A stretch of 64,000 nucleotides of DNA from an uncultured bacterium (GTDB lineage: Bacteria; Verrucomicrobiota; Verrucomicrobiia; Chthoniobacterales; SZAS-18). The stretch covers positions 35,356 through 99,355 of the forward strand of contig CAWCJJ010000030.1 in assembly GCA_963795895.1 (NCBI GenBank), read 5' to 3'. How positions within the stretch are numbered: position 1 is the stretch's first letter; each line of letters begins with the position of its first letter. Under the pieces are notes generated by a model. The model did not search any database, was not told the DNA's origin, and was given only the letters and a program-made list of their open reading frames with translations. The position numbers and the translations under genes are program-made. This document shows positions 41,637-54,370 of this stretch, in pieces.

Positions 41637-43299
<1,663 letters not shown>

Positions 43300-47135: not shown

Positions 47136-47830
47136 TCAAGTTGTAATTGGTTTAGATTGTATGCATTGGTCCATCTGTACCAAATGGATTATCTCCAGCA
47201 CAGATGAACCGTAACTTATAATATGCGGAATAGGCGGCAAGTGAGTAGCCGAAGTTGCACTTAGATTATCTGTTAGCTGCACATTCACGCTAGCGTCAGT
47301 ATGGTCAGCATTTGAAAAACCAATAAAAGTACTCACTCCGGCAATGCTACCCTGAAGAGCGCGGCAGGGTTGCTGCCCAATGCGTCTCCCGGAAAATCAA
47401 CAAAACCATAATAGAGTGGGTTCAAATCGTCTAACCTGCGTCCGGTTGGAACCGATTCACTGAGGTGGTTCTCATCTGGATTTGCTGAATTTAGAAGACC
47501 GCTCATGGCTGCTCTTTTGGGAGCCAGTCTGAACATAGTCCGATTGAATCATTTGTTGGCCCAGCACACTTGTTTCATCAAAAGTGCGAGTGTCTGAGGG
47601 TCCTGTTCCCGTAGTCCATTCGTAGAACACCTGATTAGCAGTCACATGTTCATCATCCGACCATTTGGTCCAGTTGCCGCCCGCCCGCCGGGCCCAGCGC
47701 GCGGATCGCGTCGTGGTAGTCCAGCGTGCCGTCGGCCCGCCAGGCGAGCCTCGCGCAGCGGCTCCCCCCAGCCCGGCAGCGCCGTGGCCACCAGCCACAA
47801 CAGCAACAGAACAAAGCGCGCGATTGACAT
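47136..47830 (-). CDS. small Sec-leader toxin candidate (unknown C-terminal domain), several frame changes
   Basis: It starts with MSIARFVLLLLWLVATALPGWGEPLRE, nearly identical to the leader of the RHS protein at 53574. It continues across frames as ..DGTLDYHDAIRALG.., GNWTKWSDDEHVTANQVFYEWTTGTGPSDTRTFDE.., ..LNSANPDENHL..LNPLYYGFVDFPGD.. and ..STFIGFSNADHTD.. Confidence 0.5.
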
Positions 47831-48063: not shown

Positions 48064-48699
48064 CTAAGCCCAGATATATTTGAATTCGGTCGTCTCGCCT
48101 ACGATCTTTACGAATAGATGAAAAATCATTAGACCAAATGGCCAATTTACATCAAGAAGTGTATCCGCGTTTCCTGGAAAAGTTAACTGAAGTATGTGAA
48201 CATACCCAGCTGAGGTGATCTCGTTCGTAAGCGCGTAAGCATATGATCCAGCATCCTCAAAATAAACGTCCCCGCCTAATTTACTACCAGGCCATTTTGA
48301 TTCCGGGTCGTGCGGATTGAGATCCTTGATAGCAGACCCAACCCTTAAGCGGTGCGCCGGTATAGATGAAGCTAGTTGCTTATCACGCGATCTCACTGAG
48401 TGAGGATGAACAACCATCTGAACAAATGGGCTGTTAGAACCATGAATCTTACGACAGTTTGTCCAACTGCTATTTACGTCTGAAGCAATTGGAGAAAGCC
48501 AGATAAAGAGGGACAACTCATTCTTATGGAACCAAGGTATCGTCAATAAGTACTCAGACCCTTCTTTTCGTAATTTTTCAGGTTTGACATTCACCGGAGC
48601 ATTACCTCCAATACGTGGTCCAAGGTCTCGATCGATCTTTGTGATAGTTAACGGCCTGCATTTACCCTGAACAAAATTTATTTCATTAATCAATTGCAT
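48064..48699 (-). CDS. YwqG/DUF1963-like protein, paralog 1
   Basis: GPRIGGNAPVNV, GSKLGGDVYFEDAG and HILQLTFPGNADTLLDVNWPFGLMIFHLFV. This is the [SK]-x-GG ... LLQ-like ... W-x-G pattern of the YwqG family. It is an intact, AT-rich, 211-aa ORF. Confidence 0.6.
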   Translation of the reverse strand: MQLINEINFVQGKCRPLTITKIDRDLGPRIGGNAPVNVKPEKLRKEGSEYLLTIPWFHKNELSLFIWLSPIASDVNSSWTNCRKIHGSNSPFVQMVVHPHSVRSRDKQLASSIPAHRLRVGSAIKDLNPHDPESKWPGSKLGGDVYFEDAGSYAYALTNEITSAGYVHILQLTFPGNADTLLDVNWPFGLMIFHLFVKIVGETTEFKYIWA

Positions 48700-51284: not shown

Positions 51285-51956
51285 TTACTGAAGAAGGGTC
51301 GTTTTCAATCTCTCCCACCGCACATACTGCGCAATGTGTGGCGGCATCGGGTTGGCAACCCGGAGTTTAGCTAGTTGCGAATTAATTAGGCGCCTTGCAG
51401 CGTCTTTCATCCCCTCTATAACGTAGATTGCCGCTAGTTTTTCAATTCTTTGATCTAAGTTGAGAGGCAGTCGCAGTTTGTTATCGTTCATGCTGGCAGT
51501 ATCGGACATTGTTCTTCTCCTCTTCGGAACCAAGCCGAACTCGCTGTTCCCGCACGTCCGCGTAGTAATCTATCTCATCAATGAGTTGCAGTTTCAATGA
51601 TCCTAAGGTATTAAATCTACCAATGAGGGGCAGTAAATACTTCCTACAAGTCGTGAGAATCTGTTCGACCACGTCTCCTGGGGTTTCGGGAGAGAATTGC
51701 CACTCCATGTATGTCTTTCCCGAGCTCAGGAAATGCGCTGGAACCATGAAAGCGGAGACAAGCCTACTCCTTTCTGTTCTCCAGCAGCTTCTAAGTTCCT
51801 TAAACCGAATCGCTGCGTTGGCATTTATCAGTGCAGAGTTTCCTCGTGAACGTGCGGGGAAGCGTAGACATTTGCGATATGGTGGGTATTTGCCTTTGAT
51901 AAATTAATGTCTGCACCTCGTTTGAATCCAATTTCTGACAGCGGTTCAACCAACAT
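51285..51956 (-). CDS. DUF4304-like candidate immunity protein for the RHS toxin, two frame changes
   Basis: It starts ~27 nt after the RHS stop with MLVEPLSEIGFKRGADINLSKANTHHIANVYASP... It continues as ..MEWQFSPETPGDVVEQILTTCRKYLLPLI.. (ORF 51481..51747) and ..LRLPLNLDQRIEKLAAIYVIEG.. (ORF 51285..51533). Confidence 0.45.
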
Positions 51957-51982
51957 TCCGTCCAATTTGTTTTCTATTGTGA

Positions 51983-53574
51983 TCAAGGACCTTGCCATAA
52001 TACTTTTGCCGCACCGTTAATTGTAACTCCGGATTGTTTCCCGACTGCATTCGCGCCGCCATTCATGTTGATCCATCTGTCGCCACTGAACTGCTGACTG
52101 TCCGAACGCGAGAAAGCCCCTTCTGAAGACTTGATCTCGAATCCCCAGTTCAGGCTGCTAGAATCGGATAAAACAGCGTCATAACGTCGCAACCCAAACG
52201 GTGTACCAAAGCTCACTTCCTTATCCACGAGGCTCCATCCATTATTCAACGCGCTTTGAACAAAATCATCAACAGCTGCAGAACCCGGAGAGATCTGACC
52301 TTCTGATTTCGGGGTGAACTTTCCCTGCGCGTCACGTCCCTGCTCGATAGCTCCAGTGTATGAATCGCCTCCACCGTTTGGGCTAATCGTGTCAGCTACA
52401 AACGGGCCATTGCCTGGTTCTTTAACTGCTCCACTTAGATTTGCCGGTCGGTAATGTAGTTGCCCAGGCGCGAAGTCGCCCTCGACCACCCTGGCCGCCT
52501 GGTTCTCGGCGGTGCCGAACTCGCCGAACGCCGCCACAAAGGGGGCCGCGGCCATCGTGGCGTCGCCCCTGGCCCGGTTGAGCAGCAGCGCGGCGGTGAG
52601 CAGATCCCCGTGGTCCCAGGCCGCCCAGGCGCCCTGCAGGTCGTTTTGCACGGCCACCTGCGAGTCGTAGCCGCTGAAGGCGCGCGCGGCGTCGTACAGG
52701 AGGCCCTTGGCCACGAACTCGCCCATGCCGTCGCTCTGGGCGATCCAGTGCTCGAAGGTCCGCTCGTTGAGCTTGGGGTCGAGGGCGCCCCGCCCGGTCT
52801 CCGAGGCCACGCGTCCGTCGGCGTCGAGGCGGTTGACGGGGTCGCCGCCCGCGTAGGCGTAGAGGTCCGCGCTCGCCCCATGGCCCAGCGGGTCCGCGGA
52901 GAGTAACCTTCCATCCAGCGGGTCGTAGTGGCGCGCCCCCAGCCAGTAGAAGCCCGTGGGGTCCGGCGCCGCCCGCGCCAGCCCAGGCTCTGGGCCAGGG
53001 TGGTTGTGCCAAGGAAAGGGGTGGCCGCGCCCGCGCCCGGCAGCGCCCCGTAGCCCCCGTAGCGCGCGCTCTGCCAGGAGAGCGCCGCGCCGCCGCCCGC
53101 GCCCTCCACGCGCGCCTCCGCGTGCCCGAAGGCGTCGAGCACGTAGCCCGCGCCCGCCCCGTCGCTCTCGCGCACGCTGCCCTCCAGCCCGCCGATGCCC
53201 TGCGCGCCGCCGTAGCGCCCGTCCAGGTCCGGGCCGTAGAAGAGCCACTGGCGGGCGCCCCCGTCTCTGCGCCACCGCCACCTCCAGGAACTCCACCGCC
53301 GGGTCAAACTAACGCCGGTCGCCGTGGCCTGCGCGCCCTGCGCCGCGCCCCCGCTCGCCACCGGGGTGTGGACCGTGCGCAGCCGCCGGCCCAGGCCGTC
53401 GTAGATCGCCCGCCAGTCGTAGCCGGCATTGCCCGTGTCGCGCGCCTGCGCGCTGACCAGCCGGTCTAGCGCATCCCAGGCGAGCACCTCGCGCAGCGGC
53501 TCCCCCCAGCCCGGCAGCGCCGTGGCCGTCGCCGCCAGCCACCACAGCAACAGAACAAAGCGCGCGATTGACAT
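51983..53574 (-). CDS. short Sec-leader RHS-core protein with PD-(D/E)xK-like C-terminal toxin domain, several frame changes
   Basis: The leader is MSIARFVLLWWLAATATALPGWGEPLRE, followed by YD-type repeats (YDGLGRR, LFYGPDLDGRYGGAQGIGGL). The RHS core end is GFYWLGARHYDPLDGRLLSADPLGHGASADLYAYAGGDPVNRLDADG. A ~270-aa tail then ends with RRYDAVLSD...WGFEIKSSEG (a D...ExK nuclease signature). Confidence 0.75.
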
Positions 53575-53736
53575 CCGGGATTCTAATTTCAGAGACGCAC
53601 GCTGCTGGAGAATAATTTGCAAGACGGAAGTTTTTGCAGGACGCGCAAAAAACAACATTCATAAATTCCCGGCGGCTGGCGCGCAACGATTTGCGCCTCC
53701 TCGGAGGGGCAGCTCTGAAAATTGGATACAGTCGAG

Positions 53737-54370
53737 CTAAACCCAGATATATTTGAATTCTCTTGGTCGTCTCGCCTACGATCTTTACGAATAGATGCGA
53801 AATCATTAGACCAAATGGCCAATTTACATCAAGAAGTGTATCCGCGTTTCCTGGAAAAGTTAACTGAAGTATGTGAACATACCCAGCCGAGGTGATCTCG
53901 TTCGTAAGCGCGTAAGCATATGATCCGGCATCCTCAAAATAAACGTCCCCGCCTAATTTACTACCAGGCCATTTTGATTCCGGGTCGTGCGGATTGAGAT
54001 CCTTGATAGCAGACCCAATCCTTAAGCAGTGTGCCGGTATAGATGAAGCTAGTTGCTTATCACGCGATCTCACTGAGTGAGGATGAACAACCATCTGAAC
54101 AAATGGGCTGTTAGAATCATGAATCTTACGACAGTTTGTCCAAGTGCTATTTACGTCCGAAGCAATTGGAGAAAGCCAGATAAAGAGGGACAACTCATTC
54201 TTATGGAACCAAGGTATCGTCAATAAATACTCAGATTCTTCTTTTTGCAAGTCTTCGGGTCTGACATCCACCGGCGCATTACCTCCGATGCGCGGTCCGA
54301 ACTCTTGATCGCTCTTTGTGATGATCATTGGCTTGCATTTACCCGGCACAAAATTCATCTCATTTATCAA
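53737..54370 (-). CDS. YwqG/DUF1963-like protein, paralog 2 (4-bp insertion near the 3' end)
   Basis: About 90 percent identical by eye to 48064..48699. The insertion tctt (gaattcTCTTggtcg versus gaattcggtcg) shifts the frame just before the expected stop (53737..53739), giving the artificial run-on ORF 53309..54370. Confidence 0.6.

What the first reader, a model, noticed from the sequence alone, without database searches (positions are those of the whole stretch)
51285..53574. Minimal RHS protein: Sec leader, a few YD repeats, RHS core end, PD-(D/E)xK-like tail, DUF4304-like immunity candidate
At ~530 codons this is far shorter than classical RHS shells, yet it retains the core-terminating motif (..YDPLDGRLLSADPLG..DLYAYAGGDPVNRLDADG). 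It is followed by a ~270-aa C-terminal region whose end has the RRYD-AV...GFEIK arrangement of a restriction-endonuclease-fold nuclease. The downstream gene starts 27 nt after the stop and has a DUF4304-like N-terminus. A truncated shell plus a plain signal peptide raises the question of whether encapsulation and self-cleavage still occur.
Basis: partly seen in the sequence, partly recalled or inferred. Interest (0 to 1): 0.6.

Follow-up and report, generated by a model that had tools for sequence, protein, structure and literature searches.

The report
Signal-peptide RHS stub nuclease toxin pair
A soil-type Verrucomicrobium carries a small toxin gene made of an export signal, only the last fifth of the usual RHS toxin cage, and a DNA/RNA-cutting tip, followed by its antidote gene. 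This cage-less format recurs in many bacteria but nobody knows how it works, and the apparent breaks in the gene are sequencing errors.

Summary
On the minus strand, 53577-51983 encodes about 530 codons:
- a Sec-type leader;
- about 230 residues homologous to the C-terminal end of RHS shells;
- the RHS core end, with both protease aspartates;
- a 276-residue tail.

The last ~120 residues of the tail form a confident restriction-endonuclease-fold model with invariant D...ExK. This domain belongs to a widespread toxin family that is not in Pfam.

The antidote gene (51998-51285) is homologous to the gene found directly downstream of this toxin domain in 6 of 6 loci from other phyla. It is only weakly DUF4304-like.

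Three frame changes in the toxin and two in the antidote match the genome-wide indel noise: rpoB, rpoC and purA are also split. They are therefore not evidence of decay.

The gene is not a contig-end fragment, and it does not lie downstream of a full rhs gene. Homologous leader-plus-stub proteins of 320-620 aa are common in Verrucomicrobiota, with leaders fused at different points. The same architecture with the same toxin tip also occurs as a stand-alone pair in other phyla.

The stub equals about one fifth of a shell, so it cannot enclose the toxin. Self-cleavage is possible but untested.

Earlier notes of this scan report similar cage-less RHS toxins in at least 22 other genomes. I class this as a new variant of a known kind, of moderate interest.

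The parts
53500..53577 (-). Sec-type leader. ATG at 53577; short n-region with one Arg; about 15 hydrophobic residues; A-T-A before the likely cleavage site; then PGWGEP.
   Evidence: Direct reading. The same leader is duplicated at 47829 with a different cargo. A 74-nt indel upstream in the other copy rules out the in-frame ATG at 53658 as a shared start. Homologous stubs in other genomes also begin with leaders.
52961..53499 (-). RHS shell stub of about 180 residues, homologous to the C-terminal strands of RHS/YD shells. Frame changes lie at about 53320-53308 and 53270-53262.
   Evidence: Six-frame matches to RHS proteins of a same-order genome (1155-3297-aa open frames), query residues 28-187, E 1e-23. 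tblastn of P0146, P0159 and P0166 gives E 1e-47 to 1e-50. The short alternative-frame piece FDPAVEFLEVAV matches homologues. No PF05593 hit.
52814..52960 (-). RHS-associated core end with the aspartyl autoprotease motif. The first Asp is in SADPLG, the second in LDADG, and the predicted cleavage site follows it. A frame change at about 52969-52963 lies just upstream.
   Evidence: TIGR03696 scores 44.7 bits against a cut-off of 32.5, profile positions 27-75 of 76. I aligned it by hand to the TseI motif, whose catalytic D1407 and D1429 are defined in PMC7170923.
52461..52813 (-). GC-rich linker of about 118 residues after the core end. No recognisable domain.
   Evidence: No Pfam or PDB sequence match. 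Atlas look-alikes all score under 0.9. GC stays at 68-78% up to about 52460.
51983..52460 (-). Low-GC toxin cassette. The PD-(D/E)xK nuclease-fold domain is 52366-51986 (127 residues). The stop codon is at 51985-51983.
   Evidence: phmmer found 138 cluster representatives, with matches starting at tail residue ~116-160. Invariant residues are R60, D63, E77, K79, Q92 and D96. AlphaFold2 pLDDT is 89.9. Best structural match is the VRR_NUC domain 4qbn_B, Z 8.8, rmsd 2.7 A over 82 residues, and nearly all of the top 50 are restriction-endonuclease-fold proteins. GC drops to about 50% at ~52460.
51285..51998 (-). Cognate immunity gene of about 225 residues, read in three frame pieces: 51998-51873, 51867-51505 and 51464-51288. 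It overlaps the toxin's 3' end by about 16 nt.
   Evidence: A ~210-aa homologous ORF sits directly after the toxin domain in 6 of 6 loci, L008-L013. The L008 protein against this locus gives E 2e-13. The three window pieces tile the family alignment from end to end. DUF4304 matches are weak, E 0.0012-0.15, below the cut-off.
53476..53750 (-). Copy 1 of a duplicated module: the 3' end of a YwqG-like gene, an intergenic region, and the leader through ...LAW. Copy 2 is at 48077-47740.
   Evidence: blastn gives 89-91% identity. In the alignment, similarity ends right after the codons for LAW.

Best explanation
This is a stand-alone toxin-immunity pair of the polymorphic-toxin kind, in a cage-less RHS format.

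The toxin has, in order:
- its own start codon and a Sec-type signal peptide;
- only the last ~230 residues of an RHS shell, including the core end with the two aspartates of the RHS autoprotease;
- a ~118-residue linker;
- a ~160-residue exchangeable cassette whose last ~120 residues form a PD-(D/E)xK (restriction-endonuclease-fold) nuclease domain.

The overlapping downstream gene encodes the cognate immunity protein.

Proposed mechanism:
- The precursor is exported across the inner membrane by Sec (inferred).
- The stub cannot enclose the toxin (shown by size and by fold comparison of a homologue). It acts as a pre-toxin module that may release the tail by autoproteolysis after the LDADG motif (inferred).
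- The nuclease kills cells that lack the immunity protein by cutting nucleic acid. DNA is more likely than RNA (inferred).
- How the toxin leaves the producer's periplasm and enters a target is unknown.

The five frame changes are sequencing or assembly indels, not gene decay.
For: Anatomy and motifs.

RHS homology of the stub.

Fold of a 45%-identical homologue's stub (P0146):
- Its residues ~41-250 are modelled at pLDDT 80-96.
- They align to the last ~210 residues of solved shells: RhsA 7q97 residues 1128-1339, Z 15.4, rmsd 2.9 A over 197 residues; also RhsP, Tse5, TccC3 and YenC2.

Both catalytic Asp positions are present when compared with the TseI motif.

Toxin domain:
- 138 family representatives. 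The domain sits at the C-terminus of proteins from 110 to 3581 aa, one of them with a pretoxin-HINT domain.
- Invariant D63/E77/K79.
- Model pLDDT 89.9 with the alpha-beta-beta-beta-alpha-beta order.
- Nearly all top structural matches are PD-(D/E)xK proteins, mostly nucleases.

Immunity: conserved downstream partner in 6 of 6 loci from Acidobacteriota, Thermoanaerobaculia and Planctomycetota.

Not an orphan:
- L011 holds the same architecture (leader, core end, same toxin tip, same immunity) between dapA-like and decarboxylase genes, with no rhs gene nearby.
- P0015 (569 aa; leader, a few YD repeats, core end, same tip) is recorded from two sources.
- About a quarter of the 125 short homologues examined in Verrucomicrobiota start with a leader, and the fusion points differ. 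Examples are P0146, P0153, P0159, P0166, P0200, P0239, P0242 and P0262.
- This same genome encodes a 218-aa protein that is only leader, core end and tail.

Frame changes are errors:
- rpoB is in at least 5 pieces and rpoC in 7.
- purA is split, while 90%-identical relatives have an intact 422-aa protein.
- Genome completeness is 74%, although the genome is the same size as a 98%-complete congener.
Against: - No signal-peptide predictor was available. The leader is judged by inspection and by its recurrence in homologues.
- There is no expression, secretion, cleavage or activity data.
- The second protease motif reads DADG where relatives have DPDG.
- Pfam RHS_repeat does not score in the locus.
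- The gene lies in a 19-kb island with IS630-, IS5-like and other transposase genes and toxin remnants. This is also where silent cassettes accumulate.
- With roughly 1.5 indels per kb of background noise, a real inactivating mutation cannot be excluded.
- A Sec leader in a diderm only reaches the periplasm, so the delivery route is unexplained.
Confidence: 0.6

Rival explanations
1. Silent orphan cassette. The gene is a displaced rhs-CT/immunity module kept as a recombination reservoir. It is not expressed or exported by itself, and the leader-like start is incidental.
For: - It lies in an island of toxin remnants, immunity genes and IS elements.
- The literature reads short Rhs proteins this way. 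The preprint 10.1101/2024.02.26.582050 reports 43 Rhs proteins under 100 kDa with partial cages and calls them 'likely ... not expressed'. PMC5727410 describes orphan arrays.
- Most short homologues on long contigs lack a leader.
Against: - It has its own ATG and a canonical leader.
- Leaders recur on homologous stubs at different fusion points.
- The same architecture exists as an isolated two-gene module between housekeeping genes.
- No full rhs gene lies upstream of it on the contig. The only other core end on the contig is about 78 kb away on the other strand.
- No paralogue in the 5.1-Mb assembly shares nucleotide similarity that could serve recombination.
Confidence: 0.22
2. True pseudogene pair. 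The frame changes are real, and both toxin and immunity genes are decaying.
For: There are five frame changes in 2.3 kb, slightly above the rate seen in rpoB and rpoC. The setting is rich in IS elements.
Against: - Essential single-copy genes show the same kind and a similar density of breaks.
- The one break whose position is resolved to a few bases (52969-52963) lies at short G/C runs in 75-80% GC sequence.
- Outside the breaks, the reading frames stay open and conserved along the whole family alignment.
Confidence: 0.1
3. Split RHS. The exported stub is a swappable cap that docks onto a separately encoded RHS shell lacking its own end. Encapsulation would then happen in trans.
For: This genome has several RHS repeat regions.
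Against: - No shell gene lies nearby.
- A motif scan of the genome found no further core ends and no evident end-less shell, but indel noise limits this test.
- No known RHS protein assembles in trans at this point (my own knowledge).
Confidence: 0.05

Closest known systems
Canonical Rhs / TcC polymorphic toxins (P. protegens RhsA 7q97, V. parahaemolyticus RhsP 8h8a, P. aeruginosa Tse5, A. dhakensis TseI, TcdB2-TccC3)
   Same: - The C-terminal shell strands and the plug are homologous.
- The Rhs_assc_core motif with the two protease aspartates is present.
- A hypervariable toxin follows the core end, and an immunity gene lies downstream.
   Different: - Only about a fifth of the shell is present, so there is no enclosed chamber.
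- There is no PAAR, VgrG-binding or other T6SS-linked N-terminal domain. A plain Sec leader takes its place.
- About 118 residues of linker precede the exchangeable toxin cassette.
Orphan rhs-CT/rhsI modules downstream of full rhs genes (Enterobacteriaceae, Snodgrassella alvi; PMC2935791, PMC5727410)
   Same: - A truncated core plus toxin plus immunity.
- A GC-rich core piece joined to a lower-GC tip.
- Location in a toxin island.
   Different: - It has its own start codon and an export signal.
- It is not downstream of a full rhs gene.
- No paralogue offers a recombination substrate.
- Equivalents occur as isolated pairs among housekeeping genes.
Short Rhs proteins under 100 kDa noted in the T6SS Rhs survey (bioRxiv 10.1101/2024.02.26.582050)
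   Same: A full effector domain with only part of the Rhs core, predicted unable to envelop the effector.
   Different: Those were collected as T6SS-linked and judged probably unexpressed. No signal peptide is mentioned in the passages I read. The family here is from Verrucomicrobiota and carries leaders.
PD-(D/E)xK toxin tips of polymorphic toxins (the Tox-REase families; some CdiA-CT nucleases)
   Same: A small C-terminal restriction-endonuclease-fold domain with D...ExK, paired with a specific immunity protein.
   Different: No Pfam Tox-REase model matches. One of 40 family members gave only a weak PDDEXK_5 hit (E 0.0042). The extra invariant Q92 and D96 (the QQF..DRW motif) are not features I can assign to a named family.
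Sec-dependent RHS toxins of monoderms (Bacillus subtilis WapA)
   Same: A signal peptide, RHS repeats, a core end and a toxin tip with a downstream immunity gene.
   Different: WapA carries a full-length repeat region of over 2000 aa and acts from a monoderm surface. Here the shell is a stub and the producer is a diderm.

Membership tests
RHS / YD-repeat polymorphic toxins | RHS repeat-associated core domain (TIGR03696) above the curated cut-off | tested here: met
   44.7 bits against a cut-off of 32.5. Profile positions 27-75 lie in one frame and the rest lies across the frame change.
RHS / YD-repeat polymorphic toxins | Two catalytic aspartates of the C-terminal autoprotease | tested here: met
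   The Asp of SADPLG and the Asp of LDADG align with D1407 and D1429 of the TseI motif quoted in PMC7170923. This is my hand alignment. Activity was not tested.
RHS / YD-repeat polymorphic toxins | YD repeats recognised by Pfam RHS_repeat (PF05593) | tested here: not met
   No match in the locus at E 0.1, while 101 matches occur elsewhere in the genome. Homology to RHS shell ends is nevertheless strong.
RHS / YD-repeat polymorphic toxins | A shell long enough to enclose the toxin (about 1000 residues in solved structures) | tested here: not met
   About 230 residues here are homologous to the shell end. The homologue model matches only the last ~210 residues of 960-1080-residue shells.
Orphan rhs-CT module | Lies downstream of a full rhs gene and shares core sequence with it | tested here: not met
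   The only other core end on the contig is about 78 kb away on the opposite strand. blastn and tblastn find no similar paralogue.
Orphan rhs-CT module | Lacks its own translation start or export signal | tested here: not met
   An ATG plus a leader with n-, h- and c-regions is present.
PD-(D/E)xK nuclease superfamily | The alpha-beta-beta-beta-alpha-beta core fold | tested here: met
   Model at pLDDT 89.9. VRR_NUC 4qbn_B gives Z 8.8, rmsd 2.7 A over 82 residues. Hjc, FAN1, NucS, TnsA, Vsr and Bax1 follow. Foldseek E-values are weak (0.028 or worse), but most listed hits have the same fold.
PD-(D/E)xK nuclease superfamily | Conserved Asp on strand 2 and (D/E)xK on strand 3 | tested here: met
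   D63, E77 and K79 are invariant in 40 sequences. They lie on strands 58-67 and 73-79 of the model.
PD-(D/E)xK nuclease superfamily | Metal-dependent nuclease activity | not testable with these tools
   This needs an enzyme assay.
Pfam Tox-REase families / PDDEXK families | A match to a curated model | tested here: inconclusive
   No family matched the window's tail. Among 40 family members, one weak PDDEXK_5 hit appeared, E 0.0042. Tox-REase families that never entered Pfam could not be checked.
DUF4304 (PF14137) immunity-type proteins | A Pfam match above the gathering score | tested here: inconclusive
   Four of the six intact homologues match nearly the full profile length, but below the cut-off (best 19.3 bits against 23.2; E 0.0012-0.15). 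The window's own fragment gives nothing.
Sec signal peptides | A positive n-region, a hydrophobic h-region of 10-15 residues and small residues at -3/-1 | tested here: inconclusive
   All three are visible by inspection: Arg5, a 15-residue hydrophobic run and A-T-A. No dedicated predictor was available, and export was not tested.

The most novel reading that the evidence does not exclude
Leader-fused RHS stubs are a distinct, functional class of Sec-exported, cage-less polymorphic toxins. In this class the C-terminal plug of the RHS shell has been reused as a self-cleaving pre-toxin module that works without encapsulation. The class arose repeatedly by fusing signal peptides at different points of the shell end: at ~230, ~190, ~150 and ~45 residues before the cleavage site in the proteins seen here. 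It would use a still unknown route out of the diderm periplasm.
Probability: 0.35. Interest if true: 0.65.

Novelty: new variant of a known kind. Interest (0 to 1): 0.42.

Why it matters
RHS toxins are thought to work because a ~1000-residue shell encloses and protects the toxin until delivery. Suppose instead that proteins keeping only the last fifth of that shell, or only its 45-residue end, behind a plain export signal are active weapons. Then the conserved RHS end would have a function of its own (processing, recognition or recombination), and a delivery route other than T6SS, Tc or T7SS must exist in diderm bacteria.

The locus also defines three things:
- an uncatalogued restriction-endonuclease-fold toxin domain, with 138 cluster representatives across several phyla;
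- its cognate immunity family;
- the recombination joint, which lies about 118 residues after the RHS core end and not at it.

As a single instance it is modest. It sits in an error-rich metagenome assembly, and this scan has already noted similar cage-less RHS genes in many genomes.

Tried and rejected
Gene neighbourhoods of the protein hits could therefore be read only for the six loci from the search for related loci.
- Pfam on the tail, the N-part and the downstream pieces gave nothing.
- The PDB sequence search on the tail gave nothing at E 10.
- The search for related loci with the 40-sequence alignment failed for lack of a conserved stretch. It worked with a 13-sequence alignment.
- Foldseek on the toxin model gave only E 0.028 or worse. 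The wide VIA search was needed.
- The protein atlas on the linker gave scores under 0.9, which are leads only (MafB-like, EndoU-like), so I did not use them.
- The search for a donor or acceptor rhs paralogue found only the locus itself and the duplicated leader (blastn), and only the ~50-80-residue core motif at 37-46% identity (tblastn).
- The same-genus genome has no match to the stub.
- The promoter and terminator scan gave nothing above shuffles.
- A genome-wide motif scan for extra core ends, to test the split-shell idea, found only three of the known core ends and none new.
- I considered a contig-end or mis-join artefact and rejected it. The GC step lies upstream of the leader, not at the leader-stub joint, and the contig continues for 14 kb beyond the gene.
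Full report
**Where and what**

The window is G000:C30:35356-99355 of a 5.1-Mb, 36-contig assembly. The feature is on the minus strand. Table-11 ORFs do not give one gene. They give two overlapping frames (52435..53658 and 51983..53296) and broken small ORFs downstream. A three-frame read shows the order of parts:
- an ATG at 53577 followed by a leader (one Arg, a 15-residue hydrophobic run, A-T-A);
- YD-like motifs (WDALDRLV, YDGLGRRL);
- 276 further residues ending in RRYD...GFEIK.

NCBIfam TIGR03696 (Rhs_assc_core) matches at 44.7 bits against a cut-off of 32.5. It covers only profile positions 27-75, because the first third lies in the other frame.

**Frames**

RHS proteins from a same-order genome and short homologues align to the locus in one frame from about 53535 to 52969. 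They then continue in another frame from 52963. A 13-residue piece (FDPAVEFLEVAVA, 53308-53270) matches the conserved YDPxVEFLE block of homologues in that second frame. The toxin gene therefore needs three frame changes, at about 53320-53308, 53270-53262 and 52969-52963. The immunity gene needs two.

These are not evidence of decay:
- In the same assembly rpoB is in at least five pieces and rpoC in seven.
- purA in this window is split, whereas relatives with 89-90% identity have an intact 422-aa purA.
- Completeness is 74%, although the genome is as large as a 98%-complete congener.

Background is about 1.3-1.6 breaks per kb in rpoB and rpoC. The locus has 5 in 2.3 kb, in 75-80% GC sequence.

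**The RHS part**

Pfam RHS_repeat finds nothing in the locus, though it finds 101 places elsewhere in the genome. Homology is nevertheless clear. Query residues 28-187 match the C-terminal part of 1155-3297-aa RHS open frames at E 1e-23.

Of 251 database proteins of 276-881 aa that match this region of the homologue P0146, the 120 best are listed with 42-78% identity to it. The named ones come almost all from Verrucomicrobiota. The window's purA also places the genome near Chthoniobacterales.

I modelled the closest leader-bearing homologue, P0146 (503 aa, 45% identical over the stub), with a 40-sequence alignment:
- Residues ~41-250 are confident (pLDDT 80-96) and the polymorphic tail is not.
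- The confident part aligns to the last ~210 residues of solved shells. RhsA 7q97 residues 1128-1339 give Z 15.4, rmsd 2.9 A over 197 residues. RhsP 925-1121, Tse5 921-1156, TccC3 and YenC2 also match.
- Foldseek target-normalised TM scores of 0.15-0.16 say the same thing: about one fifth of a shell.

Encapsulation is therefore excluded for this format.

The two catalytic aspartates defined for TseI (D1407 and D1429, in TPDPxxLAGG...VDPLGL; PMC7170923) correspond to the Asp of SADPLG and of LDADG here. In relatives the second motif reads DPDG. Self-cleavage is thus possible but not shown.

**The tail**

phmmer against 1.84 billion representatives found 138 proteins. Apart from the gene's own call, matches begin at tail residue ~116-160 and run to the end. 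They always lie at the C-terminus of the hit. The hits range from 110-aa fragments to proteins of 3491 and 3581 aa, and include two small proteins that have only a signal peptide in front (P0002, P0003).

An alignment of 40 short members has invariant R60, D63, E77, K79, Q92 and D96. The family has no Pfam model. One member has a pretoxin-HINT domain and one gives a weak PDDEXK_5 hit.

The AlphaFold2 model of the 127-residue domain has pLDDT 89.9 and the order helix, three strands, helices, strands. D63 lies on the second strand and E77/K79 on the third. Foldseek E-values are weak, but most of its listed hits are PD-(D/E)xK nucleases. The Foldseek-independent search puts a VRR_NUC domain first (4qbn_B, Z 8.8, rmsd 2.7 A, 82 of 93 residues). 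FAN1, NucS, Hjc, TnsA, Vsr, Bax1 and SfsA follow. The nuclease-fold reading is supported. The substrate is not known.

**Joint**

GC is 74-81% from the leader to about 52460 and about 50% below it. That point is tail residue ~118, where the database matches begin. The exchangeable unit is therefore the last ~160 residues plus the immunity gene. The ~118-residue linker belongs with the stub.

**Immunity**

In all six loci found with the toxin domain (Acidobacteriota, Thermoanaerobaculia, Pirellulaceae, Phycisphaerae, Thermoguttaceae and an unclassified MAG), a ~210-aa ORF starts 18 nt or less after, or a few to about 30 nt before, the toxin's stop codon. These six proteins are homologous to one another and to the window's downstream region (L008 protein E 2e-13).

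Three pieces of the window (51998-51873, 51867-51505, 51464-51288) tile the family alignment from the first to the last column. The ATG at 51998 reproduces the homologues' N-terminal spacing and their overlap with the toxin's end. The ATG at 51956 would remove 14 residues. DUF4304 matches four of the six intact homologues along nearly the whole profile, but below the gathering score.

**Orphan or autonomous?**

The gene sits in an island with three YwqG-like genes, IS630-like, IS5-like and other transposase genes, and toxin remnants. That suits a silent cassette. The literature reads short Rhs proteins as unexpressed spare parts.

Against that reading:
- The gene has its own ATG and leader.
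- The leader with its upstream region is duplicated at 48077-47740, where it precedes a different body. Similarity stops just after the codons for LAW.
- No full rhs gene lies upstream, and no paralogue shares nucleotide similarity.
- In L011 the same architecture with the same tip and immunity lies between dapA-like and decarboxylase genes.
- P0015 (leader, a few YD repeats, core end, same tip) is recorded as 569 aa from two sources.
- About a quarter of the 125 short verrucomicrobial homologues I examined begin with a leader, fused at different points of the shell end.
- This genome also encodes a 218-aa protein that is leader, ~40-residue core end and tail only.

Earlier notes of this scan describe similar cage-less RHS toxins in at least 22 other genomes. 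I treat that as agreement, not as evidence.

**Verdict**

This is a real toxin-immunity pair in a recurrent but uncharacterised cage-less RHS format, with a nuclease-fold tip from an uncatalogued family. It is a new variant of a known kind. The mechanism beyond 'exported nuclease toxin neutralised by its neighbour' is inferred.

Noticed in passing
L014:1127-1783 (-) = G000:C19, with a broken second copy at G000:C24:59985-60059 (L015): A 218-aa protein made only of a signal peptide, a ~40-residue RHS core end, a proline-rich linker and a short tail. An 82-aa ORF follows it. This is an even more reduced leader-plus-RHS-end format in the same genome.
   Followed up: partly
window 41640-43281 (-); G000:C18:7223-15628: purA is split into two frames in the window. 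rpoB and rpoC are split into at least 5 and 7 pieces. The whole assembly carries roughly 1.3-1.6 indels per kb, so any 'frameshifted gene' in this genome needs that caveat.
   Followed up: yes
window 47640-47829 (-): The second copy of the leader has a 6-nt in-frame deletion and a 74-nt insertion upstream of the ATG. It runs into a different, lower-GC body that has a YD-like motif just after the shared LAW.
   Followed up: partly
window 53727-54370 (-) against 48064-48699 (-): The YwqG-like gene upstream reads 353 aa only because 4 extra bases, relative to its 211-aa paralogue, remove the stop. Its real end is probably near 53735. Pfam gave no match for either copy at E 0.1.
   Followed up: partly
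L008:1766-4387 and L008:5415-7727 (+): An Acidobacteriota contig carries two short RHS-type genes in tandem, about 1 kb apart. Each has a hydrophobic leader-like N-terminus and a different tail. The first carries the same nuclease tip and immunity as the window's gene.
   Followed up: no
proteins P0242 (482 aa) and P0262 (504 aa): Two leader-stub proteins whose leaders are fused at different points of the shell end. Both are recorded on a contig of the same length (65,883 bases), so they may be neighbours.
   Followed up: no
window 52461-52813 (-): The ~118-residue GC-rich linker between the RHS core end and the exchangeable cassette has no detectable relatives or domains. Equivalent linkers in other carriers of this toxin tip are often rich in hydrophobic Ala/Gly stretches.
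   Followed up: partly
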